Of a stretch of 58,398 nt of DNA, positions 34,862 through 51,019 are shown in pieces. Position numbers and translations under genes: made by a program. Every line of letters starts with the position of its first letter. The first letter of the stretch is position 1. This stretch comes from Thermodesulfobacteriota bacterium (GTDB lineage: Bacteria; Desulfobacterota; Desulfobaccia; Desulfobaccales; 0-14-0-80-60-11). The stretch spans positions 1 to 58,398 of the forward strand of contig JBFLZI010000002.1 in assembly GCA_040756315.1 (NCBI GenBank). The letters are read 5' to 3'. The notes beneath the pieces were generated by a model. The model was not told the DNA's origin. It saw nothing but the letters and a program-made list of their open reading frames with translations, and searched no databases.

Positions 34862-34877
34862 TGGCACAGTATTTGAT
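34862..34877 (+). promoter_or_regulatory. candidate sigma-54 promoter (weak -12 element)
   Basis: TGGCAC-AGTAT-TTGATC, about 45 nt upstream of ATG 34921. Same architecture as the candidate at 33351. Confidence 0.45.
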
Positions 34878-34920
34878 CAGATAGAAGATAAAACGTCCGG
34901 CAACCAAGGAGTGATAAGAT

Positions 34921-36765: not shown

Positions 36766-36883
36766 TCTGAAGGGAAAGGGGCCTTCTTGAAGTTCCATTA
36801 AAAAGCCTTACCTTTTGAACAAAGACTCAAAAAACGGATAGCGACTCCCAAGGAAACTATCCTCAAAAAGGGAGGTAAGAGAC

Positions 36884-37135: not shown

Positions 37136-37203
37136 GTCAGGATCACCAGCCGGCTTGATTTGTGAGGCTCTCAGAGAGCTTGCCGCTTTAAGGATCGGCA
37201 AAG

Positions 37204-37845: not shown

Positions 37846-38089
37846 CAAGAAGGCGGCTCTGGTCCAAAGGGAAGGGAGTCTTGGCAACCCGCCCCTTGAC
37901 CTGGAATCAACCGTCCGGGTGGATGGCGTTCCAAAAAATGGACTTTGCGGTTTAAGGGAAGAGAGGCAGAAGAAGATGGCGGAACAACCTTCAGATAAGT
38001 GCGTGAGCCCGGCTAAGGGGCCGATCCTGACCAAGAAGACCGGACAAGCGGAAGGCTCCGGCATTTCACCTGGCAGGGAGGAACAGAAG

Positions 38090-38683
38090 ATGGGAGCGAA
38101 AGTCGGCAAACCGGCCCCGGACTTTGAGGCCGCGGCCTTTATCAATGGTGGTTTCAAAAACATCAAGCTCTCCGATTATAAAGGAAAATGGGTAGTGCTG
38201 TGCTTTTATCCGGGTGATTTCACCTTTGTCTGACCCACGGAACTGGCGGCAGTTGCCGCCAGATATAAAGAGTTTCAGGACTTGGGGGTAGAATTCCTGT
38301 CCATCAGCACCGACAGCCGCTTCAGTCATAAGATTTGGCAGGAAGAAGAGCTAAGCAAAATGGTGCCCGGCGGGATTCCCTTCCCCATGTTATCTGACCC
38401 CATGGGACTCATCGGGCAGGTGTACGGCGTCTTTGATGAGGAAGGCGGGGTGGATATCCGGGGCCGGTTTATCATTGATCCGGATGGCGTCATTCAAGCC
38501 GCGGAAACCTTGAGTCCACCGGTGGGCCGCAATCCTGCCGAGTTGCTCCGGCAGATCAAGGCTTATCAGCATGTCCGGGCCACCGGGGAAGTCTGCCCTT
38601 CAGGTTGGCAGCCGGGAAAATCTACTTTGAAGCCCGGTCCCGCCCTGGTAGGGAAAGTCTATCAGTGCTGGCAGCCGGAATAG
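38090..38683 (+). CDS. 2-Cys peroxiredoxin (AhpC/Prx family) with selenocysteine (TGA 38231-38233) at the peroxidatic position
   Basis: Two same-frame track ORFs join through one TGA. The joined sequence [16 protein letters not shown] matches the Prx motif FYPxDFTFVCPTE. Resolving-Cys region EVCPSGW. RBS GGGAGG 9 nt before the ATG. A hairpin lies downstream of the TGA. Confidence 0.85.
38243..38262 (+). promoter_or_regulatory. candidate bacterial SECIS hairpin (Prx)
   Basis: CTGGCGGC-AGTT-GCCGCCAG. Perfect 8-bp stem with GU in the loop. Starts 10 nt after the TGA. Confidence 0.65.
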
Positions 38684-38761
38684 GCTTGCCGACGGCCCAT
38701 GAGCACAAGTGCGGGCTGCGGTTGTCTGTGCTTAATTTACTTTTAGCCAAGGAGAACCACC

Positions 38762-39022
38762 ATGAAAGGCAAGCACGAACATAAGCATTTGCACTCCCAT
38801 GAACACACGCACGTCCACGGTCATGAGCACCGGCATGGAGACGAAGTCCACCTGCATGAGCACGCCCATACGCACACCCACGAGCATTTGCACGAGCACT
38901 CCCACGAGCATAGCCATGCCCAAGACTCCCACGTGCACGACCATGAGCACTCCGGGGAGCATGGTCCTCATGACCATGAGCATCCGGCCCACGACGCGGA
39001 GATGCACGAACATTCGCATTGA
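38762..39022 (+). CDS. histidine-rich metal-binding protein
   Basis: 86 aa, of which 35 are His, mostly as alternating HxH. RBS AAGGAGA. Lies upstream of a ZIP transporter gene. Confidence 0.75.
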   Translation: MKGKHEHKHLHSHEHTHVHGHEHRHGDEVHLHEHAHTHTHEHLHEHSHEHSHAQDSHVHDHEHSGEHGPHDHEHPAHDAEMHEHSH

Positions 39023-39135
39023 CCAGATTACTGCGCCTGGATCAAAGGCTGGGGCCCCGGATGCCAACGGAGGCCCGAAAAGGAAGGCATCTTTAATGGC
39101 CTCCGGCTTAAGGCCTTAGCCAAGGGGGCGAGATC

Positions 39136-39450
39136 ATGCCGAGATATTATGGTCCACGTCAGTATGCCAGAGGTCCTGGCTGGGGACGGGGCTTCGGGTT
39201 CGGGAGGGGATACGGCGGCGGTTGGTGTTGGTGGCCGCGGCGATCCTGGTGTCTGGGCTGGGGAGGGTGGGGGCCGCCCCCCTTTTGGGAGGCTGGCCCA
39301 TATGGACCCGGGCCTTATTGGGAAGAGCCGCCCTATGAATCTCCTCAAGAGGAACTGGCCGACCTTAAAGAGCAGGAAGCATCTCTCCGGAAGGAATTAG
39401 CAGCCGTTCAGACACGCCTGGCCGAACTGGAGAAAGAGGCCTCGGGTTAG
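39136..39450 (+). CDS. DUF5320-like protein: Gly/Arg/Trp-rich N-terminal region plus C-terminal coiled coil
   Basis: MPRYYGPRQYARGPGWGRGFGFGRGYGGG... followed by ELADLKEQEASLRKELAAVQTRLAELEKE. Paralog of the ORF at 45200. Confidence 0.7.
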   Translation: MPRYYGPRQYARGPGWGRGFGFGRGYGGGWCWWPRRSWCLGWGGWGPPPFWEAGPYGPGPYWEEPPYESPQEELADLKEQEASLRKELAAVQTRLAELEKEASG

Positions 39451-39528
39451 TGAGACCGGAACCCTAGCCTTCCCGGTGGGGGAAGCGCCGATCCCGGCAC
39501 CGGGGGCGACAGAAAGGCGGATTCGGCA

Positions 39529-40266
39529 ATGCTGGCCTGGATCATCTTTTTCAGCCTGCTGGGAAGCGTGGGGGCTCTCTTGGGGGCGGCCCTGGTCCTG
39601 ATCTTGCCGGAAAAGTTCCGGAAATTTCTGGTGGCCAACCTGATCAGCTACGCCACCGGCACCCTCCTGGGCGCGGTATTCCTCGGCCTGGTGCCCAGAG
39701 CCTTGCAAGAGTCTCCTTCCCCCAGGATACTGGTTTGGCTTTTAGGGGGTATCCTCTTCTTTTTCGTCATGGAGAAGCTGATCCTCTGGCGCCACTGCCA
39801 CCTGCCCGACTGCGACGTTCACGCCAGCGCCGGCCCTCTCCTGCTTATCGGGGACGCGGTCCACAATTTTACCGACGGGGTGATCATCGCCGGGGCCTTT
39901 CTCCTGTCGATGCCTTTAGGCATCGCCACCGGCCTGGCGGTGGTTTCCCACGAAGTGCCCCAGGAGCTGGGAGACTTCGCCATCCTGCTGGAGAGCGGCT
40001 ATTCCCGGGGCCAGGCCCTCGGTTACAACCTGATTTCCGCCCTGGCCACGCTGCCCGGCGCTCTTTTGGGGTACTATTTTTTGGCCCACCTGATGCAGGT
40101 GGTGCCCTATATCCTGTTAATGGGGGCGGCCAGTTTCCTGTATATCGCCCTGGCGGATCTGACCCCGTATCTCCACCGGCGCTTCGGGTTGACGGACAGC
40201 CTGCTCCAGCTTGGCTTAATCCTGGGCGGCATCGCCACCATCTGGCTGTTCCATACCGGGAGTTAA
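39529..40266 (+). CDS. ZIP-family (ZupT-like) divalent metal transporter
   Basis: Multi-pass membrane protein with HNFTDG and SHEVPQELGDF motifs. Confidence 0.88.
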   Translation: MLAWIIFFSLLGSVGALLGAALVLILPEKFRKFLVANLISYATGTLLGAVFLGLVPRALQESPSPRILVWLLGGILFFFVMEKLILWRHCHLPDCDVHASAGPLLLIGDAVHNFTDGVIIAGAFLLSMPLGIATGLAVVSHEVPQELGDFAILLESGYSRGQALGYNLISALATLPGALLGYYFLAHLMQVVPYILLMGAASFLYIALADLTPYLHRRFGLTDSLLQLGLILGGIATIWLFHTGS

Positions 40267-40299
40267 ATTCGCTTGGGGAAAAATTCCCTCGATTTGGCT

Positions 40300-41439
40300 A
40301 TGTGGGCGCGGCTCAAATCTTTTTTGGATTATTGTCAGAGGGTGTGTGGCTTAGAAGCGCCTCGCTGGCAATATCTCCAGGTGGAGGTAACCACGCGCTG
40401 CAACCTGGCGGGGTGCGCCATGTGTCCCCGCACCGCCTGGCCGGAAAGGTGGCAGGCCCGGGATCTGGCCTGGGAAACCTGGGAAGCCCTCATGCCGTCT
40501 CTGAAATTTTTCTCTCAGGTCCATTTAGGCGGCTGGGGGGAACCGCTTTTGCATCCCCGGCTTTGGGATCTGGTCCAGGGCTTGCGGTCTCAAAGGGTGG
40601 AAGTCAGCTTGACCACCAATGGCGTCGGCTTGAGGGAAGAAGCGCGGACGCAAATCCTGGAGCATCTTAATCTGGTTACCATCTCCTTGGATGGGGCCCA
40701 GGCGAAAACTTATGGGAGACTACGTCCCGGCGGCGATTTTTATCGGATCATTGGAAACATCGCCGCGCTTTGCTCCCGGAAGCAATCCCTGGGACTAGCG
40801 AGGCCGAAGGTGGTGCTGCGGTTTTTGAAGATGCGTCCGAACCTGGCGGAATTGCCCGAGTTTCTCAGATTAGCCGCCTCCCTGGGGGTGGACCGGGTTG
40901 ACGCCCCCAACCTGGCCTTTATTCCGGTCCCGGCAATGGAGCCTTTGAGTCTTTTGTCTCCCGGTCCGCCGGACTCCCGGATCAAGGCCATACAGCAGGA
41001 AGCCGAAAGGGAGGCCTGGGCCTTGAAATTGCCCTTCCGGAACTTCAGCCTCTCCCCCAATTTTAACCTGAGAGTCTGTGAGGCCAATCCCCTGGGCCAG
41101 GCCTTCGTCACCGTCTCCGGGGAGGTGGCCCCCTGCGCTTATTTGGGGCTTCCCGTTAACGGCTCATTTACACGTCGGTACTTCAACAAGTCTTATCAGA
41201 CCGGCAATTATTCCTATGGGAATGCCCGGGAGCACGGCTTGCTAAAACTTTACCAGCAACCGGCCTATCTTAACTTTATTGATTATTTTCGGAGTCCGGC
41301 GGAGATATTTGCTCTCTTGCAACCGGTCAGAGACGCTGACCGGCCAGCGGCTGAACCGTCCGGGGCAAGTCCGGTTGCCACCGCCTTAGGCCGCTGGCCG
41401 CCACCCTGTCAGGGGTGCCTGAAAAGCTTGGGGGTTTAG
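40300..41439 (+). CDS. radical SAM protein with SPASM/twitch-like C-terminal domain and a non-canonical Cx4Cx2C cluster motif
   Basis: VEVTTRCNLAGCAMCPR, GGWGEPLLHP. The C-terminal part has CEANPLGQAFVTVSGEVAPC ... PPCQGC. Start uncertain (TTG 40273 or ATG 40300). Confidence 0.75.
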   Translation: MWARLKSFLDYCQRVCGLEAPRWQYLQVEVTTRCNLAGCAMCPRTAWPERWQARDLAWETWEALMPSLKFFSQVHLGGWGEPLLHPRLWDLVQGLRSQRVEVSLTTNGVGLREEARTQILEHLNLVTISLDGAQAKTYGRLRPGGDFYRIIGNIAALCSRKQSLGLARPKVVLRFLKMRPNLAELPEFLRLAASLGVDRVDAPNLAFIPVPAMEPLSLLSPGPPDSRIKAIQQEAEREAWALKLPFRNFSLSPNFNLRVCEANPLGQAFVTVSGEVAPCAYLGLPVNGSFTRRYFNKSYQTGNYSYGNAREHGLLKLYQQPAYLNFIDYFRSPAEIFALLQPVRDADRPAAEPSGASPVATALGRWPPPCQGCLKSLGV

Positions 41440-41534
41440 GTCCAGGTGGAGACTTATTCAGACCGATAAATGCCGGCTGTTGAGTTGATTGAGGCAAGTG
41501 GTGAATATCACCGGAGGGACCCGGAGGGTTAGAA

Positions 41535-42710
41535 ATGTTTAATGTGCCTGAACTAGCAGACAAGATCTATTTCCTGGGAGCCAGGGATTGGCATCGCCGT
41601 ATCTTTGATGCTCTTATCCCCCTGCCCCAGGGGACGACATATAATGCCTACCTGGTCAAAGGCAGCGACCAAACAGCCCTGATTGATACAGTAAATCCTG
41701 GTTTTGAGCCGGAGTTGCTTGCCAGACTCTCCCAGGTCATGGAGCCGGGGGAGCTGGATTATGTGGTGATGAACCACGCGGAGCCGGACCATGCCGGAGC
41801 CATTCCGGCCGTCTTACAGGCCAGCCCCAGGGCCAAATTGATCACTACCGCCAAGGGCGCGAGTATGGCCCGCACCTATTTTCAGACCCCGGAAGAGAGA
41901 ATCATGGTGGTGAAAGACAGCGATACCGTCACCCTGGGCGATAAAACCCTGCGCTTTCTGGAGGCCCCCTGGCTCCACTGGCCGGAAACCATGTTTACCT
42001 ATGCGGTAGAGGAACGGGTGCTTTTTTCCTGTGACTTCTTCGGCGCCCATACTGCCTTCGGATTGTATGAGGATGAGGTGGAGGACCTGCCGGTTTTGGC
42101 CAAGAGGTACTTCGGTGAAATCATGATGCCCTTCCGCCTGCCAGGGCAAAAGGCTCTGCGGAAGCTGGCCGATCTGGAGATCGGCCTCATCGCCCCCAGC
42201 CACGGCCCCGTTTACCGGAATCCTAAAAAAATTCTGGCCGCTTATCAAGACTGGACGTCAGGCGTTACCGGTGAAAAAGCGACCCTGGTATATGCCAGCA
42301 TGTGGCAATCCACCGAGAAGATGGTTTTTCACCTGGCGGAAGTTTTTCAGGCCGAGGCCATACAGGTCTGCCTCTATAACCTGGTTAATGCGGATTTGGG
42401 CGATATTGCCAAAGACCTGGTAGATTCCCGGGCCTTGGTCCTCGGCACCCCCACAGTTTTAGGGGGCATGCATCCCCTGGCCCTTTTTGGAGCCTACCTG
42501 GTGAAAGCTTTACGTCCTCCGGCAAAGTATGGGGCAGTGCTTAGCTCCTATGGCTGGGGCGGCGGGGCCCTGCGTCAAATTTCCGAAATCCTCTCCGGCA
42601 CTAACATTGAGTTGGCAGGCGCCGTGGAGGTTTTGGGACCGCCCACCGCAGAAACCCTGGAGCAAGTGGAGGGTCTGGGTCATAAACTCGCGGGCAAAAT
42701 TAAGGGTTAA
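41535..42710 (+). CDS. flavodiiron protein (FprA/ROO-type O2/NO reductase)
   Basis: MBL-like diiron motif NHAEPDHAG, then a flavodoxin-like C-terminal domain. RBS GGAGGG. Confidence 0.88.
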   Translation: MFNVPELADKIYFLGARDWHRRIFDALIPLPQGTTYNAYLVKGSDQTALIDTVNPGFEPELLARLSQVMEPGELDYVVMNHAEPDHAGAIPAVLQASPRAKLITTAKGASMARTYFQTPEERIMVVKDSDTVTLGDKTLRFLEAPWLHWPETMFTYAVEERVLFSCDFFGAHTAFGLYEDEVEDLPVLAKRYFGEIMMPFRLPGQKALRKLADLEIGLIAPSHGPVYRNPKKILAAYQDWTSGVTGEKATLVYASMWQSTEKMVFHLAEVFQAEAIQVCLYNLVNADLGDIAKDLVDSRALVLGTPTVLGGMHPLALFGAYLVKALRPPAKYGAVLSSYGWGGGALRQISEILSGTNIELAGAVEVLGPPTAETLEQVEGLGHKLAGKIKG

Positions 42711-42795
42711 AAAAAATAGTCAAGATCAGCGACAGGGCAGGCTGGCTCACTAATTAACTTACCTTTCCTGAGAAGCAACGGGTTTAAGACACGTT

Positions 42796-44055
42796 ATGGA
42801 TACGGGTGAACGTCTGGCATTAGCGTCTGTAGCAGTCAACCTTTTGGTGACCGGGCTCAAGTATTTCCTGGGGGTGTTTTCCGGGAGTCTGGCCCTCTTG
42901 GCCGACGCGGTGCACTCCAGCGCCGACGTGGTCTCGTCCGCCTCCATCTGGGCCGGGATCAGGCTCTCCCGGCGCAAGACCAAACGGTTTCCCTATGGCC
43001 TCTACAAGGTGGAAAACCTGGTGGCTTTAATCACCGCGGCGATTATTCTCCTGGCCGGCTATGAGATCGCCCGCAGCGTGTTGTGGGCCGGGGAGAGGGT
43101 CCGGGCGGAACGCCTGCCGTACGCCATTTTCGGAGTGATGGTGATTGTTTTGATTCTCCTGGCCTTTTCCCGCTACGAGCTGAGAAAGGCCAGAGCCCTC
43201 AGTTCCCCCAGCCTGGAGGCCGACGCCCAGCACCTGGGCGCCGACCTGTTTTCTTCTTGCGTCATCCTGGTGGGACTGGCAGGAACCTATTTTCAGGTGA
43301 AATTCCCCCTGGACCGGGTGGCGGCCCTGATCATCGTGGGATTGATCGCCTGGGTGGGGGTGAAAATCGCAGTGGACGCCATCCGGGTGCTCCTGGACGC
43401 CTCCCTGGACTTCCATACCTTGAACACTATCCGGGACATTATCCTTGAGACCCCCCAGGTCAGTAAGATCAACGCGCTGACGGGAAGGAATTCCGGCAAA
43501 TTCAAGTTCATCGAAGCCGACCTGGCCCTTAAGGTCAGGGAGCTCCCCAAGGCTCACTTTATTGCCAATCAAATCGAGGGCCGCATCAAAGCCAGAGTGT
43601 CCAATGTGGATCACGTTCTCATCCATTATGAACCCATTAAAAAAGAGACTCGGGTCATTGCCTTGCCCGTGGCGGCAGATCGGCAGCACCTGTCGGAGCA
43701 CTTCGGGGAAGCGCCTTATTTCCTTTTGCTCACCTTAAAGATTGAAGACGGCAGTCTTTTAGAAGAAACCTGGCAGTCCAACCCCTTTCTAGGGGTGGAA
43801 AAAGGTAAAGGCATCCAGGTGAGCGAATGGCTGGTGAGCCTGGGGATTGACGAAGTGGTCACCGCCAAAAGTTTCGCGCATAAGGGTCCCTTTTACGTCT
43901 TTTCCGACAATGAAGTGGAGGTGCGGCAAACCGAGGGGCAGAGCCTCAAGGAGATCAAGGAATCTCTCATCGGGTCTGCCGAGGCCGGTAGCGCTGGCCA
44001 GGACTTCAGCTTTGGTGGAAATAATCCCCCCATTTACTCAGAAGATAGCCATTGA
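42796..44055 (+). CDS. cation diffusion facilitator (CDF) efflux transporter fused to a C-terminal NifX-like domain
   Basis: CDF membrane and cytoplasmic domains (LLADAVHSSADVVSS, six TM segments). The last ~110 aa or so read RVIALPVAADRQHLSEHFGEAPYFLLL...GIDEVVTAKSF, which matches the Nitro_FeMo-Co pattern. Confidence 0.85.
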   Translation: MDTGERLALASVAVNLLVTGLKYFLGVFSGSLALLADAVHSSADVVSSASIWAGIRLSRRKTKRFPYGLYKVENLVALITAAIILLAGYEIARSVLWAGERVRAERLPYAIFGVMVIVLILLAFSRYELRKARALSSPSLEADAQHLGADLFSSCVILVGLAGTYFQVKFPLDRVAALIIVGLIAWVGVKIAVDAIRVLLDASLDFHTLNTIRDIILETPQVSKINALTGRNSGKFKFIEADLALKVRELPKAHFIANQIEGRIKARVSNVDHVLIHYEPIKKETRVIALPVAADRQHLSEHFGEAPYFLLLTLKIEDGSLLEETWQSNPFLGVEKGKGIQVSEWLVSLGIDEVVTAKSFAHKGPFYVFSDNEVEVRQTEGQSLKEIKESLIGSAEAGSAGQDFSFGGNNPPIYSEDSH

Positions 44056-44833
44056 CTGCCTCCTCCACCGTCCCTGTGTGGAGTTGGCTTATGGCGATTA
44101 CGGGGCCGGCGAGGCCCTCATCCTGATTCATGGGCTGGGCGGCAGGGGTTGGAGCTGGCGCCAGCAAATTGCCGAGCTGTCTCAGGATTACCGGGTCCTG
44201 GCCCTGGACCTGCGAGGCCACGGGAACTCCGGCTGCCGGGCCGGGGAGACCATCAGCCTCAGGTCCCTGGCTGAGGACGTCATGGCCTTGATGAAGAACC
44301 TCGGAGTGGTTCGGGGCCATATCTGCGGCCATTCCCTGGGGGGCATGATCGCCCTGGAGATCCTGGCCCGCTCCGGCACCTTGATAAAGTCCCTGGTCTT
44401 GACGGACACCACGGCTTTTTTCCCCCCGCCTTCAATGTTGGCAGAATTTTTGCACCACTTTGACCTGATGGAAATGGCAAATTGGGCCAGGTTTATGGCG
44501 CCCCGGCTCCTGGGGCGGGAAGCGCCGGCGGCTTTGACCGAGGAGGTGGTGGAGACCATCAGCGCCACCTCCCGGGTCGCGTACCGCCAGGCCCTCATCG
44601 CCGCTTTCCAAGCGGACTATCGCTGGTTACTCCCTTTGCTTGACCTTCCCACCTTGATTCTGGTGGGAGAAGAAGATCAGGCGACCCCCTGGGGTCATGC
44701 CCGTTACCTCCAGAGCCGGATCAGAGAGGCATCTCTTCAGGTGGTGCCTAAGGCCGGGCACCTGTCCCCTCAAGAAAATCCCCAGGAATTCAACCGGCAG
44801 CTTCGGGCGCACCTGAAAGGATATGAGAGGTAA
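44015..44833 (+). CDS. alpha/beta-fold hydrolase
   Basis: LILIHGLGG and the nucleophile elbow GHSLGG. The start is uncertain: GTG 44015, GTG 44078 or TTG 44084. The long track ORF starting at 43847 overlaps the CDF gene. Confidence 0.75.
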   Translation: MEIIPPFTQKIAIDCLLHRPCVELAYGDYGAGEALILIHGLGGRGWSWRQQIAELSQDYRVLALDLRGHGNSGCRAGETISLRSLAEDVMALMKNLGVVRGHICGHSLGGMIALEILARSGTLIKSLVLTDTTAFFPPPSMLAEFLHHFDLMEMANWARFMAPRLLGREAPAALTEEVVETISATSRVAYRQALIAAFQADYRWLLPLLDLPTLILVGEEDQATPWGHARYLQSRIREASLQVVPKAGHLSPQENPQEFNRQLRAHLKGYER

Positions 44834-44896
44834 TGGTCTTGCCGGGGAGCAAATATCAACCCTAGAAAAGCCAATTACTGGAAAGGAGATCCGTGT

Positions 44897-45130
44897 ATGC
44901 CAGGTTTTGCTCGGAGTCAAGGTCCAGGCGGCGGAGCGGGCGGCGGTCCAGGCCGCGGGCCCGGTCGCGGCGGGGGCCGGGGCGGTGGCCGGGGCGGCGG
45001 TTTCCGGCCGGGCCCTGGAGGTTTCTGCCTCTGCCCGGCCTGTGGCCACAAGGTGTCTCACCAGCAGGGAGTCCCCTGCTTTGAGGTAAAATGCCCCCAA
45101 TGCGGGGCGATGATGATCCGGGAAAGATGA
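44897..45130 (+). CDS. Gly/Arg-rich protein with C-terminal double CPxCG zinc ribbon
   Basis: 77 aa. MPGFARSQGPGGGAGGGPGRGPGRGGGRGGGRGGG... followed by CLCPACGHKVSHQQGVPCFEVKCPQCGAMMIRE. RBS AAAGGAGA. The ribbon matches the tail of the ORF at 27274. Confidence 0.7.
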   Translation: MPGFARSQGPGGGAGGGPGRGPGRGGGRGGGRGGGFRPGPGGFCLCPACGHKVSHQQGVPCFEVKCPQCGAMMIRER

Positions 45131-45199
45131 GGCGGCTCCGGGCCTTTTACCGCCCGGGAGCGCGGCGACATTCTTTCCTGGTAAAGGAGGTATTGGATT

Positions 45200-45523
45200 A
45201 TGCCAGGTTATGATGGTACAGGACCCCGGGGCCAAGGCCCTGGCACCGGCTGGGGTCTGGGTCCCTGTGGCGCGGGTCGGCGGAGAGGCGCCGGCTTCGG
45301 TCCGGGGTTTGGCCGGGGCGCTGGGGGTTTCGGCCGGGGCGCCTGGGGCCGCCCCCGTTGGGGTTGGGGCGCGCGGCGGGCCTACGGCCCTTTCGCCCCC
45401 GGCGGCGGTCCGGTCTATGGAGCTCCACCGGACGAAGCCCAGGCTTTGAAAGAGGAAGCGGCCTACTTACAAAGTGAGCTGGAGGCCGTCCAGAGGCGGA
45501 TCGCCGCACTGGAGAGCTCTTAA
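45200..45523 (+). CDS. DUF5320-like protein: Gly/Arg-rich N-terminal region plus C-terminal coiled coil
   Basis: MPGYDGTGPRGQGPGTG... followed by EAQALKEEAAYLQSELEAVQRRIAALESS. RBS AAAGGAGG. Confidence 0.75.
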   Translation: MPGYDGTGPRGQGPGTGWGLGPCGAGRRRGAGFGPGFGRGAGGFGRGAWGRPRWGWGARRAYGPFAPGGGPVYGAPPDEAQALKEEAAYLQSELEAVQRRIAALESS

Positions 45524-45534
45524 CTTTCGGCCAT

Positions 45535-45581
45535 GTCCCCTGCTCCGGATAAAATCAGGGCAGGGGACGTGAGACTTTTTT
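45535..45581 (+). terminator. rho-independent terminator candidate
   Basis: GTCCCCTGC-16 nt-GCAGGGGAC is a perfect 9-bp stem, followed by GTGAGACTTTTTT. Confidence 0.55.
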
Positions 45582-45631
45582 GGCAGCAGGGCTTTGCGCC
45601 GGTGAACCGGCTTTTTAAGAGGTATGTGGCC

Positions 45632-46072
45632 ATGTCAGAAGTTGAGTGTCAACTCCCGGAGTTCAACCCGGAAGACACGGAAATCAAGGAAATTTTGGCA
45701 AAGAGCCGGATCATTGCGGTAGTGGGGCTTTCCGCCGACCCTGACAAGGACAGCCATCAGGTGGCCAAATACCTGCAGGAACAGGGCTATCGCATTGTGC
45801 CGGTCAACCCCAGGCCGGGCGAGATTTTGGGTCAGAAATGTTACGCCAGCCTCAAAGAAATCCCTTTTCCAGTGGATATCGTGGATATTTTTCGAAAAAT
45901 CGCCGCCATTCCGGCAGTGGTGGACGACGCCATTGCCATCGGCGCCAAAGTAGTCTGGATGCAGTTGGGTCTGGCCGAAAACCAGGCAGCTCGTAAGGCG
46001 ATGGCTGCCGGTCTTCAGGTGGTCATGAATAAATGCCTGAAAATCGAACACAGGCGCTATTTCTCCCGATAA
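45632..46072 (+). CDS. CoA-binding domain protein (YccU/YneT-like)
   Basis: RIIAVVGLSADPDKDSHQVAKYLQEQGYRIVPVNP. Start set at ATG 45632 with AAGAGG. The track extension from 45533 contains the terminator. Confidence 0.8.
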   Translation: MSEVECQLPEFNPEDTEIKEILAKSRIIAVVGLSADPDKDSHQVAKYLQEQGYRIVPVNPRPGEILGQKCYASLKEIPFPVDIVDIFRKIAAIPAVVDDAIAIGAKVVWMQLGLAENQAARKAMAAGLQVVMNKCLKIEHRRYFSR

Positions 46073-46168
46073 TCCCGGCAGGCGGCCCAGGCGGCTTGAG
46101 AGTTGAGCCAGGCCCGGCGCCGGCCGCCGGCCGGTGACCATGTCCCGGCGGTTATTGCCGAAAGCGCC

Positions 46169-46197
46169 TTGACTGGGAAAGCTTTCTGGACTAATTT
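46169..46197 (+). promoter_or_regulatory. sigma-70-type promoter candidate
   Basis: TTGACT, 17-nt spacer, TAATTT. Lies 28 nt upstream of the rhodanese GTG. Confidence 0.5.
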
Positions 46198-46225
46198 CTA
46201 TTGGTATTAAACAGAAAGGAGGAAC

Positions 46226-46948
46226 GTGCCAGTGACCAGAAAGATCTTTTTATGCGCATTGGTAGTGGCGCTCTTGGGCGCCTTTGCGGTGATGGGTGCA
46301 GCCCAACAGGCGGCGAAACCGGCCGCGCCGGCGGCGGCGCCGGAAAAAGCCGCGGCCCCGGAAAAACCGGCGGCGCCGGCGGCCCCAGCCGCAGCCAAAG
46401 AGGCGGCCGCACCCGCACCTAAGGCTGCCCCCGCCCCCGAGGACAAGAAGAAGCATGTCGCCTCGGGGCTGTACGTCTCGGCTAAAGACGCTTACGCCAT
46501 GTGGCAGGCGGACAAAGCCAACGTCAAGGTTTTGGATTGCCGCACCCCCGAGGAATATGCCTTTATCGGGCATGCCCCCATGGCCGTAAACATTCCTATC
46601 AAATTCGTGGTTTACAAGTGGGATCCGGAAAAGAAAGCCTACCAGATGAAACCGAATCCCAAATTCCTGAGAGAAGCCAAAAAGCGCTTCAAGAAAACCG
46701 ACACCATCCTGGTGATGTGCCGTTCAGGGCACCGGAGCGCCGCCTCAGCCAACGCCCTCATCAAAGCCGGCTACCCTAAGGTGTATAACATCATTGACGG
46801 CTATGAGGGGGACAAGGTGAAAGACAAGAACAGCCCTGATTTCGGCAAGCGCACCATCAACGGCTGGAAGAATTCCGGGGTTCCCTGGACCTATGATCTT
46901 GACGTGGAACAGATTTACCTCATCGCCAAACCCAAGAAGACCAAATGA
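46226..46948 (+). CDS. exported rhodanese-domain sulfurtransferase with Ala/Pro-rich linker
   Basis: Signal peptide, then an (A/P/K/E)-rich spacer of about 55 aa, then a rhodanese domain with active-site loop CRSGHRS. RBS AAAGGAGGA. Confidence 0.85.
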   Translation: MPVTRKIFLCALVVALLGAFAVMGAAQQAAKPAAPAAAPEKAAAPEKPAAPAAPAAAKEAAAPAPKAAPAPEDKKKHVASGLYVSAKDAYAMWQADKANVKVLDCRTPEEYAFIGHAPMAVNIPIKFVVYKWDPEKKAYQMKPNPKFLREAKKRFKKTDTILVMCRSGHRSAASANALIKAGYPKVYNIIDGYEGDKVKDKNSPDFGKRTINGWKNSGVPWTYDLDVEQIYLIAKPKKTK

Positions 46949-46975
46949 TCCGTGCGGTGATAGAGTCAAGAAGTC

Positions 46976-47015
46976 GGGGCCGGCCTTCCCTGAAGAAGCT
47001 GGCCCCAGTGTTTTT
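46976..47015 (+). terminator. rho-independent terminator candidate
   Basis: GGGGCCGGC-13 nt-GCTGGCCCC (9 bp, one G-U pair), then AGTGTTTTT. Confidence 0.55.
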
Positions 47016-47050
47016 AATAGCCGGTTAACTGGGGGAAATAATTAAGTTAT

Positions 47051-47172
47051 ACCAATTCGCACTCAAATAGGTATTAAAATGTAGGGGCGAACCTTGGGTT
47101 CGCCCACTGATTTAGGGCGAATCCAAGATTCGCCCCTACGAAAAAAATTGTCGTTTGATGGCGAATTGGTAT
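47051..47172. repeat. MITE-like element: terminal inverted repeats ACCAATTCGC/GCGAATTGGT around a double-hairpin GTAGGGGCG...CGCCCCTAC core
   Basis: The core at 47081-47139 contains GGGCGAAC-CTTG-GGTTCGCCC and GGGCGAATC-CAA-GATTCGCCC. Related cores lie at 47214-47270 and 51054-51117. The GGCGAATTGGTATTAG end recurs at 51675-51690. Confidence 0.55.
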
Positions 47173-47213
47173 TAGACAGGCCCGGCGGGCGCCGGGCTGC
47201 CTTAAGCAGTTTG

Positions 47214-47270
47214 GTCGGGGCGCACCCGCGTGTGCTCCTTTGAAATCGGGCGGACACCTAAGTCCGCCCC
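47214..47270. repeat. degenerate copy of the GTAGGGGCG double-hairpin repeat
   Basis: GTCGGGGCGCAC..GTGTGCTCC..GGGCGGAC-ACCTAA-GTCCGCCCCTGG. Confidence 0.45.
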
Positions 47271-47382
47271 TGGAGGAGACTCTATTAGTGTTTGACGGAA
47301 ACATCCGGGACATAACCGTAAGGGAAAATGTAACTTCACTGACAGGGCAGATCTAGAAAAGGGGGTGACAAAGGTGAGCAAC

Positions 47383-47730
47383 ATGCTCTTTATCATTTCC
47401 AACGGCTTTGAAAAGGCGGGCCGGGCCACCCGGGCCTTCCAATTCGCCAAGGTAGCCAGGGAAAAGGGACATGACGTTAAGGTCTTTCTGGTGGACGACG
47501 CCATCCATTGGGCCCAACTGGGCATGGCCGAAGGGGTCCGGGCCGCCACCGGCGAGGAGATGAAGCCTTTTATCGACTACCTGCTGGCCAACGGCACGGA
47601 GATTGTCGCCTGCAAGGCCTGAGTGGACCACAGGTACTTAACCCCCGATGAAATGATTCCGGGGGTCACTATTCAAGGGGCGCCATATCTCATCGATTTG
47701 ATAGAACGCTATCAGACGATGACCTTTTAA
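47383..47730 (+). CDS. DsrE/YchN-family protein with selenocysteine (TGA 47620-47622) in a CxxU motif
   Basis: The track ORF stops at ...EIVACKA. Reading through the TGA adds VDHRYLTPDEMIPGVTIQGAPYLIDLIERYQTMTF, restoring the C-terminal third typical of DsrE/YchN. The family motif CxxC becomes CKAU. Start is ATG 47383 or GTG 47365/47374. Confidence 0.75.
47641..47666 (+). promoter_or_regulatory. candidate SECIS hairpin (DsrE-like gene)
   Basis: ACCCCCG-12 nt-CGGGGGT. Perfect 7-bp stem starting 19 nt after the TGA. Confidence 0.5.
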
Positions 47731-49037: not shown

Positions 49038-49279
49038 CCCCGCCCTGGTGGGAAACATGGTTCTAGTCTGCCGCGGCCAGGACAGGGAACTCGGTGTCTT
49101 CTCATAACTCCGGGTCTGACCCCGGCGGGATCAGACCTCTGCAAAGTGAAAGAAAGGCTGGTTTCGGTGGGCCATGGCGTCGGGACCGCGGCAGGCACCG
49201 GACCTGACCACGGGCCGCCTGAGGCGCAGCGTTTGCCGGCAAGCGGCCCCCTGCCGGAGACACACAAAGGAGAACTGGT

Positions 49280-50635
49280 ATGGAAAAAGGACATAAACTG
49301 GTGATCATCGGCATGGGAGGAGTGGGCGGCCCGGCGGCTATGCTCGCTCGCAAGTTACTGCCGGGCGTGGACATTACCGTTATCCGGGAAGAAGACCGCT
49401 TCATCGTCCGCTGAGCCCTCCCCCACGTGGTGGCCGGTGTGGCTACCGTTGACTCCATCACCAATCCGGACCGGATGTTTGAGGAAGCCGGCATCAAGGT
49501 GGTGCTGGGAAAAGTCGTGAAGGCTGACGCGGTCAATAAAACCCTGATGTTGGCGGATGGCGGCACCATCCATTTTGACAAGCTCATCTTGGGCCTGGGG
49601 GCCCGACAGATGATCTCACCTTTGGAGGGGAGTACCCTCAAGGGCGTTTTTACCTTGAGGAGCGCCGCTGACGCCGTGCGCATCCGGGAATATCTCGAGG
49701 CTGAAAATCCTCGTCAACTGATCTTTATCGGCGCGGGTTACACCAATCTGGAAACCGCCTCCTTGCTGATGACCGCCAAACCGGATTACTACCGGGCCAC
49801 CGTCGTTGAACTTATGGAGTATCCTTTGCCCTTGATGCTGGACCGGGACCTGGCCCTGGGGGTTCAGGATTATTTAGCCGAAAAAGGCCTCCAGATGAAA
49901 ATGGGAGAAAAAGCCGCCCGGCTCCTGGGAAACAACGGCCGGGTAGCCGGGGTTGAACTTACCTCGGGGGAACAAATCCCCGGAGATTTTGTTTTGATCG
50001 CGGTGGGGGCCGCCCCTAACCTGGAACTGGCCCAGCAGTTAGATCTGGCCCTAGAAAAATTCGGCATTCAGGTAAATGAGTTTTTGGAGACCTCCCATCC
50101 CGATATTCTGGCCGGAGGCGATTGTGTGGAGAAGCTCCATTTTATCACGAAAAAACCGGTGCTCAGCATGCTGCGCGGCCCCGCCGTCATTCAGGGGCGG
50201 CTCCTGGCCAAACGCCTGGCCGGTTATGCGATTCCTTTCCCGGGAGTCTTGAACAATTCCGCGGTCAGGTTGTTCGACAAATATTTGGGTTCCGTGGGTC
50301 TGACCGAAGACGCGGCCCGCCGGGAAGGGTTCGACCCCATCACGGCTTCGGCGGTCTCCCGCAGTAAACACGGCATGATCCCCGGGGTCAAGCCCTGGAC
50401 CCTAAAACTGGTGTTCGACCGCCAAACCCAAAAGCTCCTGGGGGGGCAGATCATCAGTGACAGCGAGGCGCCGGTGAAGGAGATCGATACGATCAACGCC
50501 CTGATCCTGGGGGGCAAAACCATCCCCGACCTGACCCTCTTGATGTGCGCCGGCACGCCGGACTTGTCGTCCGAACCGAGTCTGGAGCCCATCACGATCT
50601 GCGCCGAGCAGGCGCTGCAAAAAATGCGCGGATAA
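49280..50635 (+). CDS. CoA-disulfide reductase/NADH oxidase-family flavoprotein with selenocysteine (TGA 49412-49414) at the redox-active Cys position
   Basis: ATG 49280 with AAAGGAGA. MEKGHKLVIIGMGGVGGPAAM...RFIVR-U-ALPHVVAG aligns with the SFANCALPY region of CoADR/Nox. Same frame as the track ORF at 49427-50635. The joined protein is 451 aa. Confidence 0.82.
49427..49449 (+). promoter_or_regulatory. candidate SECIS hairpin (CoADR/Nox-like gene)
   Basis: GGTGGCC-GGTGT-GGCTACC (7 bp including one G-U pair, extendable by two wobble pairs). Starts 13-15 nt after the TGA. Confidence 0.5.
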
Positions 50636-50674: not shown

Positions 50675-51019
50675 ATGAAAAAAGTGATGCTGGTAGGTTG
50701 TGGAGCCTACATGGACAGCGGTTACGGCTGTCCGGGGGAATGGCGCTGCATGAAGGCGGCCACGTTGGGGGAGGGGACGTTTACCGAACCCGTGCAGGTC
50801 ATGTCCTTTGTCAAGTGTCAGTGCCCCGGTCGCAGCCTGGTGGCCAACGTGGGCATGGCCATGAAGCTGGCGGAAATGAAGCCGGAAGCGATTTATTTGA
50901 GTTCCTGCCTGGCCAAGGCCAAGCCGGGGTGTCCTTATAGCACCGCCGAAGAAATCTCCCAGCTTATCACGGGAAAAACCGGCATCCCGGTGATATTGGG
51001 GACCCACGAATATCATTAA
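50675..51019 (+). CDS. CGGC-domain protein
   Basis: MKKVMLVGCGAYMDSGYGCPGEWRC...CQCPG...SSCL. RBS AAAGGAG 9 nt upstream. The track start at 50645 is an extension. Confidence 0.7.
   Translation: MKKVMLVGCGAYMDSGYGCPGEWRCMKAATLGEGTFTEPVQVMSFVKCQCPGRSLVANVGMAMKLAEMKPEAIYLSSCLAKAKPGCPYSTAEEISQLITGKTGIPVILGTHEYH

What the first reader, a model, noticed from the sequence alone, without database searches (positions are those of the whole stretch)
49280..50635. CoA-disulfide reductase/NADH-oxidase-like flavoprotein with Sec replacing the single redox-active Cys; N-terminus missed by the ORF track
The track ORF starts at an internal GTG (49427). Upstream in the same frame, ATG 49280 (RBS AAAGGAGA) opens MEKGHKLVIIGMGGVGGPAAMLARKLL...EDRFIVR, then TGA (49412-49414), then ALPHVVAGVATV... 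This supplies the missing FAD-binding GxGxxG fold. It also places U exactly where CoADR/Nox enzymes have the catalytic Cys (the SFANCALPY region). A hairpin GGTGGCC-GGTGT-GGCTACC starts about 15 nt after the TGA. The joined length of 451 aa is typical for the family.
Basis: partly seen in the sequence, partly recalled or inferred. Interest (0 to 1): 0.7.

Follow-up and report, generated by a model that had tools for sequence, protein, structure and literature searches.

The report
Selenocysteine flavoprotein gene split by annotation
This is a real gene for a 451-residue NADH/FAD-dependent sulfur-redox enzyme whose catalytic cysteine is replaced by selenocysteine (encoded by a UGA "stop"); the enzyme type is already catalogued, but gene finders routinely cut this branch of it into a 44-residue stub and a headless 400-residue protein.

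Summary

**The gene.** ATG 49280 (Shine-Dalgarno 49266-49273) opens a frame that runs through TGA 49412-49414 to TAA 50633-50635, giving 451 codons.

**Evidence for selenocysteine (Sec).**
- The TGA aligns with the flavin-proximal catalytic Cys of solved CoADR/Npsr structures. It also aligns with Cys in 130 of 130 distant relatives.
- All 80 related genomic loci (55-88% identity) carry TGA at this codon, never TAA, TAG or a Cys codon. Each has a conserved N-terminal GxGxxG segment, and 78 of the 80 upstream regions scanned (79 loci plus the window) have a ribosome-binding site.
- The hairpin at 49429-49447 meets all four published bacterial SECIS (Sec insertion sequence) criteria. Its wobble positions are almost frozen and it shows compensatory changes. 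Cys paralogues lack it.
- Two other genes in the window, a peroxiredoxin and a DsrE-like protein, also have conserved in-frame TGAs at redox Cys sites.
- TGA ends at least seven ordinary genes here, so the code is not reassigned.

**Novelty.** A Sec "NADH oxidase / CoA-disulfide reductase-like" family has been listed since 2004. This is therefore a new member of a known kind.

**What is distinctive.** The clade is Sec-fixed, has a U[A/S]LPH motif and an invariant C-terminal Cys423, and is split in every public entry found.

**Open points.** The substrate is unknown. No sel genes lie in the window.

The parts
49266..49273 (+). Shine-Dalgarno sequence AAAGGAGA, 6 nt upstream of the true start codon
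   Evidence: Read from the sequence. An SD-like motif lies 4-15 nt before the equivalent start in 78 of the 80 upstream regions scanned, 79 loci plus the window.
49280..50635 (+). Full coding sequence of the selenoprotein: 451 residues including Sec45, with TAA stop at 50633-50635
   Evidence: Translation. Pfam Pyr_redox_2 6-286, Pyr_redox 147-228 and Pyr_redox_dim 333-419. PDB matches over residues 5-449. tblastn matches cover residues 1-450 in 79 of 80 loci; L031 matches 18-450.
49310..49330 (+). FAD-binding dinucleotide motif GMGGVGG (residues 11-17). It is present only if translation starts at 49280.
   Evidence: It is conserved as G[MCSRG][GS]G[VAST]G[GA] in the 79 loci whose match includes the N-terminus.
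49412..49414 (+). In-frame TGA read as selenocysteine (residue 45), at the flavin-proximal catalytic Cys position
   Evidence: TGA in 80 of 80 loci. Aligned to Cys in solved structures and in 130 of 130 representatives. Entries P0271 and P0272 show W here, which is a code-4 translation of TGA.
49429..49447 (+). Bacterial SECIS hairpin: stem 49429-49435 / 49441-49447, apical loop GGUGU at 49436-49440
   Evidence: Hairpin energy is -12.6 kcal/mol. Loop of 5 nt, stem of 6-7 bp, loop starts with GG, 21 nt from UGA to loop; this matches the criteria in the PMC13188914 Fig. 2 legend. 92% of cells are paired (core six pairs about 98%) vs 21-54% when slid, with G-C to A-U and U-A to C-G double changes. 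Wobble entropy is 0-0.75 bit vs about 1.5-1.9 elsewhere. Cys paralogues lack it.
49427..49429 (+). Internal GTG used as a false start by ORF and gene callers
   Evidence: the ORF listing. This codon is GTN or GCN in relatives, so it is often not a start codon. Public entries are truncated to 386-411 aa.
49730..49753 (+). Second Rossmann motif GAGYTNLE (residues 151-158) for NAD(P)H binding. The invariant Glu177 (nt 49808-49810) aligns with AfNpsr Glu183.
   Evidence: Alignment to 6pfz. Invariant columns G151, A152, G153, E158 and E177. The role of E183 in NADH specificity is described in PMC7969121.
50357..50386 (+). Clade-invariant motif SRSKHGMIPG (residues 360-369). It aligns with the segment of P. 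horikoshii CoADR that contains His367, which lies directly above the catalytic Cys.
   Evidence: Invariant columns. Alignment STRPHYYPGG vs SRSKHGMIPG. The position of H367 is given in PMC6026696.
50546..50548 (+). Codon of the invariant Cys423 in LMCAGxPD. The motif replaces the LAYAPP tyrosine motif found in all solved relatives.
   Evidence: Invariant C423. All matching PDB chains have AYAPP. 93 of 130 representatives have Tyr at column 425, and only the Sec clade plus P0122 have C423.
50675..51019 (+). Downstream CGGC-domain gene (114 aa), 39 nt after the stop. Probably co-transcribed and a possible partner.
   Evidence: Pfam CGGC, 6.4e-21. A homologue lies within about 1.5 kb of the Sec gene in 15 of 80 loci, downstream or upstream, and about 6 kb away in L009.

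Best explanation
Window 49280-50635 (+) is one gene for a 451-residue homodimer-type flavoprotein. It belongs to the single-redox-centre branch of the pyridine nucleotide-disulfide oxidoreductases, the CoADR / persulfide reductase / NADH oxidase / NADH peroxidase group.

**Recoding.** Codon 45 (UGA, 49412-49414) is decoded as selenocysteine. A 6-7 bp hairpin with a GGU-containing 5-nt loop, placed 14 nt downstream, acts as the bacterial SECIS that recruits SelB-Sec-tRNA(Sec).

**Shown here.**
- The Sec/Cys pairing with homologues.
- The conservation of the TGA.
- The SECIS-like structure.
- The domain architecture.

**Inferred from the family mechanism.** NADH (Glu177 aligns with the residue that excludes NADPH in AfNpsr) reduces FAD. 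FAD then reduces the oxidised selenium centre at residue 45, which could be a selenenylsulfide with a thiol or CoA, or a selenenic acid. That centre in turn reduces the substrate.

**Substrate (inferred, not shown).** The most likely substrate is a per- or polysulfide, or a small-molecule or protein disulfide or persulfide. The gene sits in a thiol / sulfane-sulfur / Fe-S redox island and recurs next to DsrE-like and CGGC proteins. Peroxide or O2 reduction is the main alternative.

**Confidence.** The stated confidence (0.9) is for the selenoprotein-gene identity. For the sulfur/disulfide substrate class it is only about 0.5.
For: **Sequence and family.**
- One continuous frame with a single TGA.
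- Pfam Pyr_redox_2 / Pyr_redox / Pyr_redox_dim cover residues 6-419.
- The best NCBIfam hit is CoADR TIGR03385.
- The best PDB hits are 6pfz (5e-57) and Pyrococcus CoADR, with the TGA on the catalytic Cys.

**Comparative evidence.**
- All 120 top database homologues are truncated to 386-411 aa at the same point.
- 80 of 80 genomic loci have TGA at the codon and a conserved, start-codon-initiated N-terminus.
- 78 of the 80 upstream regions scanned (79 loci plus the window) have an RBS.
- The upstream 44 codons show conserved amino acids with free wobble positions, which means they are translated.
- All 130 representatives have Cys at position 45.

**SECIS.**
- Synonymous-site freezing over codons +6 to +10.
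- Pair counts and compensatory changes.
- Published criteria met.
- Negative control on Cys paralogues.

**Genetic code and Sec use.**
- TGA is an ordinary stop for KdsA, RpoN, an ABC transporter, transketolase, CDF, CdsA and Lgt.
- Independent Sec use in the same contig: Sec-peroxiredoxin with TGA 38231 and a perfect 8-bp hairpin, and a DsrE-like gene with TGA 47620. Both TGAs are conserved in relatives.

**Literature.** This enzyme family is a listed selenoprotein family, and Deltaproteobacteria are the richest Sec users.
Against: - No selA, selB, selC or selD lies in the 58-kb window. ARAGORN finds only tRNA-Ala.
- Single-sequence folding does not pick the hairpin, and the region is not more stable than shuffles (z = +1.2 to +1.6).
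- Rfam gives no SECIS hit. It also gives none for the textbook-like Prx hairpin, so this test is uninformative.
- There is no protein-level evidence of selenium.
- The substrate assignment rests only on homology at 41% identity or less to Cys forms, and on gene neighbourhood. The neighbourhood is variable: DsrE-like in 14 and CGGC in 15-16 of about 80 loci.
Confidence: 0.9

Rival explanations
1. There are two separate products. Translation ends at TGA 49412, giving a 44-aa peptide, and a 402-aa protein initiates independently at GTG 49427. This is how public annotation treats the locus.
For: The ORF list and all public gene calls show a protein of about 400 aa. A separate 44-aa 'hypothetical protein' is deposited in dozens of clusters.
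Against: - The 402-aa product would lack the GxGxxG FAD-binding beta-alpha-beta unit and the catalytic residue, so it would be a dead flavoenzyme.
- Codon 49427 is GTN or GCN in relatives, so it is often not a start codon, and it has no RBS because it lies in coding sequence.
- The 44 codons and the downstream frame stay in phase, with TGA only, in 80 of 80 loci.
- The split calls are what any standard gene caller produces at a Sec codon.
Confidence: 0.03
2. It is a pseudogene, or the TGA is an assembly or sequencing error: a nonsense mutation in a formerly Cys-containing gene.
For: There is a single in-frame stop in an otherwise intact gene. The window is probably from a metagenome-assembled contig.
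Against: - The same TGA occurs in 80 independent assemblies across several orders, never as TAA, TAG or TGC/TGT.
- Purifying selection is visible on both sides of it.
- A conserved RNA hairpin lies just downstream.
Confidence: 0.01
3. The UGA is read through without selenium, for example by a suppressor or near-cognate tRNA inserting Trp, Cys or Gly, or through a reassigned genetic code.
For: Two ENA entries translate the codon as W, which is code 4. The Sec machinery has not been seen in the window.
Against: - TGA terminates at least seven Pfam-verified genes in the same window, so UGA is not reassigned.
- The position is a redox-active Cys in all homologues, which is the signature of Sec.
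- The hairpin matches the SelB-type SECIS model.
- The neighbouring Prx and DsrE-like genes show the same pattern at their redox Cys.
Confidence: 0.03
4. The gene is the same selenoprotein, but its physiological role is peroxide or oxygen detoxification. It would act as an NADH peroxidase or oxidase with a selenenic-acid intermediate, rather than in sulfur or disulfide reduction.
For: - The family includes Nox and Npx. AfNpsr, the best PDB hit, has NADH oxidase activity.
- A Sec-peroxiredoxin lies about 11 kb upstream and an ODP-type di-iron protein about 6.6 kb upstream in the window. Both recur near the gene in other loci: Prx in 7 and an MBL/ODP-like protein in 10.
- A PAS sensor kinase lies directly upstream.
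- From general knowledge, Sec resists over-oxidation.
Against: - The Nox equivalog score is 120 vs a cut-off of 600.
- The best matches are CoADR and persulfide reductases.
- The U-A-L-P-H motif resembles CoADR-type CALP[YH].
- DsrE-like sulfur-carrier genes are the tightest recurrent neighbours.
Confidence: 0.25

Closest known systems
[quoted passage not shown] Also reported once in the Olavius delta-1 symbiont and once in the GOS data.
   Same: It is the same enzyme superfamily and COG; JGI names the homologues with the COG0446 label. TIGR03385 is the best NCBIfam hit. Sec replaces the single flavin-proximal catalytic Cys. The hosts are Deltaproteobacteria/Desulfobacterota.
   Different: The listed motif is UGxP (PMC13188914), whereas this clade has U[A/S]LPH in 80 of 80 loci. 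The literature counts one sequence per data set. Here at least 80 species-level genomes and more than 120 protein clusters form a Sec-only clade. I could not retrieve the exemplar sequence, so whether it belongs to the same clade or reflects an independent Cys-to-Sec event is untested.
Archaeoglobus fulgidus NADH-dependent persulfide reductase AfNpsr (PDB 6pfz, 'NoxA-3')
   Same: It is the best solved-structure match (5e-57, residues 7-449). The catalytic Cys42 aligns with the TGA. The NADH-specifying Glu183 aligns with the invariant Glu177. The host is a sulfate reducer.
   Different: AfNpsr has Cys rather than Sec. It carries a C-terminal rhodanese domain (551 aa) that is absent here. It has the LAYAPPYS tyrosine motif where this protein has LMCAGTPD.
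Pyrococcus horikoshii CoA-disulfide / polysulfide reductase (PDB 4fx9, 3kd9, 5l1n) and Staphylococcus aureus CoADR (1yqz)
   Same: They have the same length class (about 440-450 aa), the same three-domain architecture, and a single catalytic Cys at the aligned position.
   Different: Identity is about 30-35%. The NCBIfam CoADR equivalog cut-offs are missed by a wide margin. The channel residues over the active site differ: RPHYYPGG vs the invariant SKHGMIPG, and AYAPP vs CAGxP. CoA binding is not established here.
Enterococcus NADH peroxidase (1joa and others) and H2O-forming NADH oxidases (2bc0, 2cdu)
   Same: They belong to the same PNDOR subgroup and have one redox-active Cys, which cycles through Cys-SOH next to FAD (one search hits; mechanism from general knowledge).
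   Different: The matches are weaker (1e-30 or worse, and partial). The Nox equivalog score is 120 vs 600.
Mammalian thioredoxin reductase (a Sec-containing flavoprotein disulfide reductase; from general knowledge)
   Same: It is an NAD(P)H/FAD pyridine nucleotide-disulfide oxidoreductase that uses selenocysteine in catalysis.
   Different: TrxR keeps a CxxxxC disulfide next to the flavin and has Sec in a C-terminal GCUG tail of the partner subunit. Here Sec itself occupies the flavin-proximal position and there is no CxxxxC. The SECIS is bacterial and lies in the coding sequence, not in a 3'-UTR.

Membership tests
Bacterial selenoprotein gene (Sec-UGA plus bSECIS) | The in-frame UGA aligns with a conserved Cys in homologues (Sec/Cys pair) | tested here: met
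   Cys in solved structures. Cys in the closest full-length relatives P0122, P0128, P0130 and others. Cys in 130 of 130 representatives.
Bacterial selenoprotein gene (Sec-UGA plus bSECIS) | TGA-containing orthologues exist in other organisms, with coding conservation on both sides | tested here: met
   80 of 80 loci have TGA, never TAA or TAG. The N-terminal 44 codons are conserved at the amino-acid level with free wobble positions.
Bacterial selenoprotein gene (Sec-UGA plus bSECIS) | bSECIS model: 3-9 nt apical loop, 4-16 bp stem, G in the first two loop positions, 16-37 nt from UGA to loop, and -7.5 kcal/mol or lower (PMC13188914) | tested here: met
   The loop is GGUGU or GGUCU (5 nt), the stem is 6-7 bp, the spacing is 21 nt and the energy is -12.6 kcal/mol. 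Conservation and covariation are shown.
Bacterial selenoprotein gene (Sec-UGA plus bSECIS) | The genome encodes selA, selB, selC (tRNA-Sec) and selD | tested here: inconclusive
   None is found in the 58-kb window, and the rest of the genome is not available. Indirect support comes from two more conserved in-frame-TGA genes of known selenoprotein families on the same contig.
Bacterial selenoprotein gene (Sec-UGA plus bSECIS) | Selenium is actually incorporated in the protein | not testable with these tools
   This needs 75Se labelling or mass spectrometry.
Single-redox-centre PNDOR (CoADR / Npsr / Nox / Npx group) | Pyr_redox_2 plus Pyr_redox_dim architecture with an N-terminal GxGxxG and a second NAD(P)H Rossmann motif | tested here: met
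   Pfam coverage of residues 6-286 and 333-419. GMGGVGG at 11-17 and GAGYTNLE at 151-158.
Single-redox-centre PNDOR (CoADR / Npsr / Nox / Npx group) | One redox-active residue near position 42-48 beside the flavin, and no CxxxxC disulfide | tested here: met
   Residue 45 aligns with Cys42, Cys43 or Cys48 of the solved enzymes. The only other cysteines are C282, C423 and C441, so there is no CxxxxC.
CoA-disulfide reductase sensu stricto (NCBIfam TIGR03385, NF007123, NF010037) | Score at or above the curated equivalog cut-off | tested here: not met
   225.3 vs 578.8 bits, 184.1 vs 458, and 120.7 vs 394.
CoA-disulfide reductase sensu stricto (NCBIfam TIGR03385, NF007123, NF010037) | C-terminal AYAPP tyrosine motif contributed to the partner's active site (its role is from my own knowledge of S. 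aureus CoADR Tyr419') | tested here: not met
   The column holds Gly425. The motif is LMCAGTPD, whereas all matching PDB chains have LAYAPP.
Npsr (CoADR-rhodanese fusion persulfide reductase) | C-terminal rhodanese domain of about 100 aa fused to the reductase (PMC7969121) | tested here: not met
   The protein ends at residue 451 with no rhodanese domain. A stand-alone rhodanese gene at 46226-46948 is not conserved near the gene in other loci.
H2O-forming NADH oxidase (NF046103) | Score at or above the curated cut-off | tested here: not met
   119.9 vs 600 bits, and only residues 66-420 match.
Catalogued Sec 'FAD-dependent oxidoreductase (CoADR / NADH oxidase)' family | COG0446 / TIGR03385-type protein with Sec at the catalytic Cys | tested here: met
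   (JGI COG0446 names). The family is described in PMC9312934 and PMC13188914.
Catalogued Sec 'FAD-dependent oxidoreductase (CoADR / NADH oxidase)' family | Listed Sec motif UGxP, and orthology to exemplar WP_011365774.1 | tested here: inconclusive
   The motif here is U[A/S]LP (UxxP, but position +1 is not Gly) in 80 of 80 loci. The exemplar sequence could not be obtained with these tools.

The most novel reading that the evidence does not exclude
The clade may not be simply 'CoADR with Sec'. It could be a distinct two-centre enzyme.

In this reading, the invariant Cys423 sits in LMCAGxPD, where relatives have the partner-subunit active-site tyrosine motif AYAPP. It would form an intersubunit selenenylsulfide with Sec45'. 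The enzyme would then serve as the dedicated NADH-dependent reductase of the neighbouring DsrE-like proteins (themselves Sec- or Cys-containing) and/or the CGGC proteins. That would make a selenium-based persulfide/disulfide relay in sulfate reducers.
Probability: 0.12. Interest if true: 0.6.

Novelty: new member of a known kind. Interest (0 to 1): 0.3.

Why it matters
**Annotation.** Every public entry found for this clade is wrong in the same way. There are more than 120 protein clusters of a headless "NADH oxidase" of about 400 aa. There are also dozens of 44-aa "hypothetical proteins", some named "D-arabinose 1-dehydrogenase-like". The TGA rule plus the hairpin described here would repair all of them.

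**Biology.** The branch is large and Sec-only. No Cys form was seen above 41% identity. In sulfate-reducing and syntrophic Desulfobacterota it lies beside Sec-peroxiredoxin and Sec- or Cys-containing DsrE-like genes. That points to a selenium-dependent thiol / sulfane-sulfur defence module. It does not change the known picture of Sec usage.

Tried and rejected
- **Single-sequence folding** of 64-nt and 106-nt stretches. The MFE picks other pairings and z-scores are positive. This is uninformative in 59% GC coding sequence, so I replaced it with comparative tests.
- **Rfam.** The gathering scan of the whole window found only tRNA-Ala. Permissive scans around TGA 49412 and the Prx TGA 38231 gave only chance hits and no SECIS family.
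- **Sigma-54 promoter.** An aGGCgC-N5-TTGC motif at 49223-49236 is not conserved: only 4 strict and 10 loose matches in 80. Dropped.
- **Rhodanese and CoA-binding genes** 2-4 kb upstream as conserved partners. They gave 0 of 80 loci by tblastn. Rejected as a conserved linkage.
- **ORFs 20347-21696 and 18304-20322 (-)** as a split Sec-HdrA. The junction is a TAG followed by a new ATG, so these are ordinary genes.
- **P0192** as a second truncated Sec lineage. It is a contig-end fragment that carries Cys.
- **sel genes in the window.** None found.
- **Structure prediction** of the full-length product. The exhaustive search had to be run with the post-TGA part only.
- **Contig look-up** for the window's own truncated protein. 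Not on record.
- **Source material.** The 2004 EMBO Reports paper and the exemplar WP_011365774.1 are not held or retrievable.
Full report
**1. The observation**

- AAAGGAGA lies at 49266-49273, followed by ATG at 49280.
- The frame reads MEKGHKLVIIGMGGVGGPAAMLARKLLPGVDITVIREEDRFIVR, then TGA at 49412-49414, then ALPHVVAGVATV..., and ends at TAA 50633-50635. That is 451 codons.
- The mechanical ORF list begins at GTG 49427 (402 aa).
- The hairpin GGTGGCC-GGTGT-GGCTACC occupies 49429-49447.

**2. What the protein is**

I placed Cys at the TGA for searching.
- Pfam finds Pyr_redox_2 (residues 6-286, 1e-45), Pyr_redox and Pyr_redox_dim.
- NCBIfam's best model is CoA-disulfide reductase TIGR03385. 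The score is 225 bits against a cut-off of 579, and every other equivalog (Nox, NorW, Lpd and so on) is also far below its threshold.
- Against the PDB, the best matches are A. fulgidus 'NoxA-3' 6pfz (5e-57) and the Pyrococcus CoADRs 4fx9, 3kd9 and 5l1n (1e-49 to 5e-50). These are followed by further CoADR, Nox and persulfide-reductase entries, with NADH peroxidase and the Npsr-type entries near 1e-30.
- In the printed alignments the TGA column is the catalytic Cys: RCGLPY in 6pfz and PCGIPY in Pyrococcus.
- 6pfz has been characterised as an NADH-specific persulfide/polysulfide reductase (PMC7969121). Its NADH-determining Glu183 aligns with Glu177 here, which is invariant in the clade.

**3. 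Is the TGA translated?**

*Database homologues.* The 120 best entries (63-100% identity) are all 386-411 aa and cover only 85-90% of the query. They are cut at the same place.

*Genomic loci.* A scan of one genome per GTDB species found 225 species with a relative. All of the 80 best loci (55-88% identity) match through the stop. They come from Desulfobaccales, Syntrophobacterales, Desulfobacterales and Desulfobulbales, plus a few bins labelled otherwise.
- Each of the 80 has a stop at the identical position, FIVR*[A/S]LPH. It is preceded by 44 conserved codons that start with ATG or GTG and contain the GxGxxG motif.
- The stop is TGA in 80 of 80, never TAA, TAG or a Cys codon.
- Of the 80 upstream regions scanned (79 loci plus the window), 78 have a Shine-Dalgarno motif before that start.
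- In the upstream 44 codons the amino acids are conserved while third positions vary freely (about 1.5-1.9 bit). That is the signature of a translated region.

*Distant relatives.* An exhaustive HMMER search of 1.84 billion representatives showed that the clade collapses into one 50% cluster (P0121, truncated). The next relatives are full-length proteins at 41% identity or less. All of them have Cys at the aligned position, 130 of 130 in a joint alignment.

*N-terminal search.* A search with the N-terminal 80 residues returned dozens of stand-alone 44-aa 'hypothetical proteins'. Two short entries read W at the site, which is a code-4 translation of TGA. No public entry with Cys, or with an annotated Sec, was found for this clade.

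**4. The SECIS**

- Codons +6 to +10 after the TGA are GTG GCC GGT CTG/GTG GCC. Their synonymous third-position entropy is 0.35, 0.29, 0.17, 0.00 and 0.75 bit. Four-fold codons on either side show about 1.5-1.9 bit.
- On 75 distinct sequences the 7-bp helix is paired in 92% of cells, and the six core pairs in about 98%. When the 3' arm is slid by 1-3 nt the figure falls to 21-54%. There are G-C to A-U changes in 5 sequences, U-A to C-G in 2, and many G-U intermediates.
- The hairpin alone is worth -12.6 kcal/mol.
- It meets all four published bSECIS constraints: 3-9 nt loop, 4-16 bp stem, G in the first two loop positions, 16-37 nt from UGA to loop, and -7.5 kcal/mol or lower (PMC13188914 Fig. 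2 legend). Here the loop is GGUGU or GGUCU and the spacing is 21 nt.
- As a negative control I used seven Cys-containing paralogues encoded next to the Sec gene in some of the loci. They show 0-3 of 7 pairs in the same geometry and a mean MFE of -7.6 kcal/mol. The Sec genes show 6.4 of 7 pairs and -15.2 kcal/mol.
- Single-sequence MFE folding and Rfam gave nothing. Rfam is equally silent on the obvious Prx hairpin, so those negatives carry little weight.

**5. Does this organism read UGA as Sec?**

No sel gene or tRNA-Sec is in the window. However, TGA terminates at least seven Pfam-verified genes here: KdsA, RpoN, an ABC transporter, transketolase, CDF, CdsA and Lgt. The code is therefore standard.

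Two further genes on the contig have an in-frame TGA at a redox Cys.
- **Peroxiredoxin.** ATG 38090...[12 protein letters not shown]..., TGA 38231. A perfect 8-bp hairpin CUGGCGGC-AGUU-GCCGCCAG lies at 38243-38262. Pfam AhpC-TSA scores 1e-40. The TGA is conserved in 7 loci.
- **DsrE-like protein.** ATG 47383...ACKA*VDHRY..., TGA 47620. The TGA is conserved in L001 and L002. Other loci have CxxC, or a TGA at the first Cys.

Both belong to catalogued selenoprotein families.

**6. Context and likely function**

The window around the gene reads, in order:
- CoA_binding_2 (45533)
- rhodanese (46226)
- DsrE-like with Sec (47383)
- PAS histidine kinase (47961)
- the Sec flavoprotein (49280)
- CGGC-domain protein (50675)
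- tRNA-Ala, CdsA, Lgt, LspA and IleRS on the other strand

Across about 80 loci the recurrent neighbours are:

| Neighbour | Loci |
|---|---|
| PAS / sigma-54 regulators | 26 |
| CGGC | 15-16 |
| DsrE-like (often directly upstream, same strand) | 14 |
| Cys PNDOR paralogue | 13 by clustering, 7 confirmed |
| 4Fe-4S (Fer4) ferredoxin-domain protein | 12 |
| Fe-S assembly-type proteins: NifU_N, MinD-4Fe4S and Mrp, with Nitro_FeMo-Co-like assigned by sequence similarity only | about 10 each |
| MBL/ODP-like | 10 |
| Sec-Prx | 7 |

The rhodanese and CoA-binding genes are not conserved neighbours.

From the family mechanism I infer the electron path NADH, then FAD, then Sec45, then substrate. The neighbourhood and the best structural relatives favour a persulfide, polysulfide or disulfide substrate, possibly protein-bound. 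A peroxidase or oxidase role is the main alternative. None of this is shown.

**7. How it differs from characterised relatives**

- All matching solved structures carry LAYAPP near the C-terminus. This clade has LMCAGxPD, with an invariant Cys423 and Gly at the tyrosine column.
- Only the Sec clade and its nearest Cys relative P0122 share C423. Of 130 representatives, 93 have the tyrosine.
- The segment that in P. horikoshii CoADR holds His367 'directly above the catalytic cysteine' (PMC6026696) is the invariant SRSKHGMIPG here.

This suggests a different substrate pocket. Speculatively, it suggests a Sec45-Cys423' selenenylsulfide.

**8. Comparison with what is known**

- A Sec-containing 'NADH oxidase' was listed for Geobacter metallireducens, one sequence among 285 bacterial selenoproteins (PMC1794560). 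The reviews attribute the family to their reference 12, which is probably the 2004 EMBO Reports paper; I could not retrieve that paper.
- It was found once in the Olavius delta-1 symbiont (PMC1976440) and once in the GOS data (PMC2398784).

The finding is therefore a member of a known selenoprotein family. What is new at the margin:
- the size of this branch and the fact that Sec is fixed in it;
- its U[A/S]LPH motif;
- the C-terminal Cys;
- its linkage to Sec-Prx and DsrE-like genes;
- the fact that all public entries found are split.

I could not obtain the exemplar sequence. Whether this clade is the same lineage or an independent Cys-to-Sec replacement remains open.

**9. Verdict**

- Novelty: new member of a known kind.
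- Interest is modest (0.3). The result is a solid annotation correction and a well-defined biochemical target, not a surprise to specialists.

Noticed in passing
window 38090-38683 (+); TGA 38231-38233; hairpin 38243-38262: A second selenoprotein gene: a peroxiredoxin (AhpC-TSA 1e-40, 1-cysPrx_C) with TGA at the peroxidatic Cys ([12 protein letters not shown]). A perfect 8-bp hairpin CUGGCGGC-AGUU-GCCGCCAG follows 9 nt later. The ORF track splits it into 37811-38233 and 38282-38683. The TGA is conserved in 7 related loci.
   Followed up: partly
window 47383-47730 (+); TGA 47620-47622: A probable third selenoprotein: a DsrE/DsrF-like protein reading ...IVACKA*VDHRYL..., which is CxxU. L001 and L002 keep the TGA. 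L064, L069 and L074 have CxxC. L049, L053 and L054 have the TGA at the first Cys, which is UxxC, the motif listed in reviews. Sec therefore appears at either Cys of the same CxxC in different lineages. No convincing SECIS was defined.
   Followed up: partly
public protein databases (P0274-P0333; P0001-P0120): The gene is systematically split in public annotation. Dozens of clusters hold a stand-alone 44-aa 'hypothetical protein', some named 'D-arabinose 1-dehydrogenase-like Zn-dependent alcohol dehydrogenase' or 'NADH dehydrogenase'. A further 120 or more clusters hold a 386-411-aa 'NADH oxidase (H2O2-forming)'. Two ENA fragments read W at the Sec codon, a code-4 call.
   Followed up: yes
window about 27880-47730 and neighbourhoods of L001-L080: The Sec genes sit in a recurrent island of Fe-S, metal and thiol genes. 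In the window the island holds MinD/ParA-4Fe4S (27880, 29608), a sigma-54 PAS activator (30492), radical SAM (33794), Mrp/NUBPL plus Nitro_FeMo-Co (34921), Prx (38090), a His-rich protein (38762), ZIP (39529), radical SAM-SPASM (40273), ODP di-iron/MBL (41535), CDF plus Nitro_FeMo-Co (42796), an alpha/beta hydrolase (43847) and DUF5320 (45200). Similar sets, plus a NifU_N protein, recur in other loci. The function of the island is unknown.
   Followed up: partly
window 38762-39019 (+): An 86-aa ORF made almost entirely of His/Glu repeats (MKGKHEHKHLHSHEHTHVHGHEHRHGDEVHLHEH...). It has no Pfam hit. It lies between the Sec-Prx and a ZIP transporter, so it may be a metal-binding protein.
   Followed up: no
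window 18304-26865 (-): An HdrA-like / MvhD / MetF-MetV cluster. It holds an HdrA-like protein of 1027 aa, FlpD (MvhD), MTHFR with its C-terminal partner, and a second flavoprotein-ferredoxin pair (449 aa and 672 aa with an FlpD domain). This arrangement is typical of acetyl-CoA-pathway anaerobes. The 449/672 junction is a TAG, not a Sec site.
   Followed up: partly
L036, L041, L044, L048, L052, L056 (record titles): Some carriers of the Sec gene are MAGs labelled Gammaproteobacteria, Fibrobacteraceae, Dehalococcoidia or Phycisphaeraceae. P0320 is labelled Chloroflexota. This reflects either horizontal transfer of the gene or mis-binned contigs.
   Followed up: no
L042:6133-6200: This locus has a 1-nt insertion just after the TGA that shifts the frame (GCGCTTGCCTCAT vs GCGCTGCCTCAT). 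It is probably an assembly error rather than a pseudogene.
   Followed up: no
L028, L029, L032, L033, L034, L062, L070 (neighbours of the Sec gene): A Cys-containing paralogue of the same flavoprotein family (about 450 aa, LVPCGIPY[IM]FG) is encoded within a few kb of the Sec gene, often on the opposite strand. This suggests a Sec/Cys enzyme pair in those genomes.
   Followed up: partly
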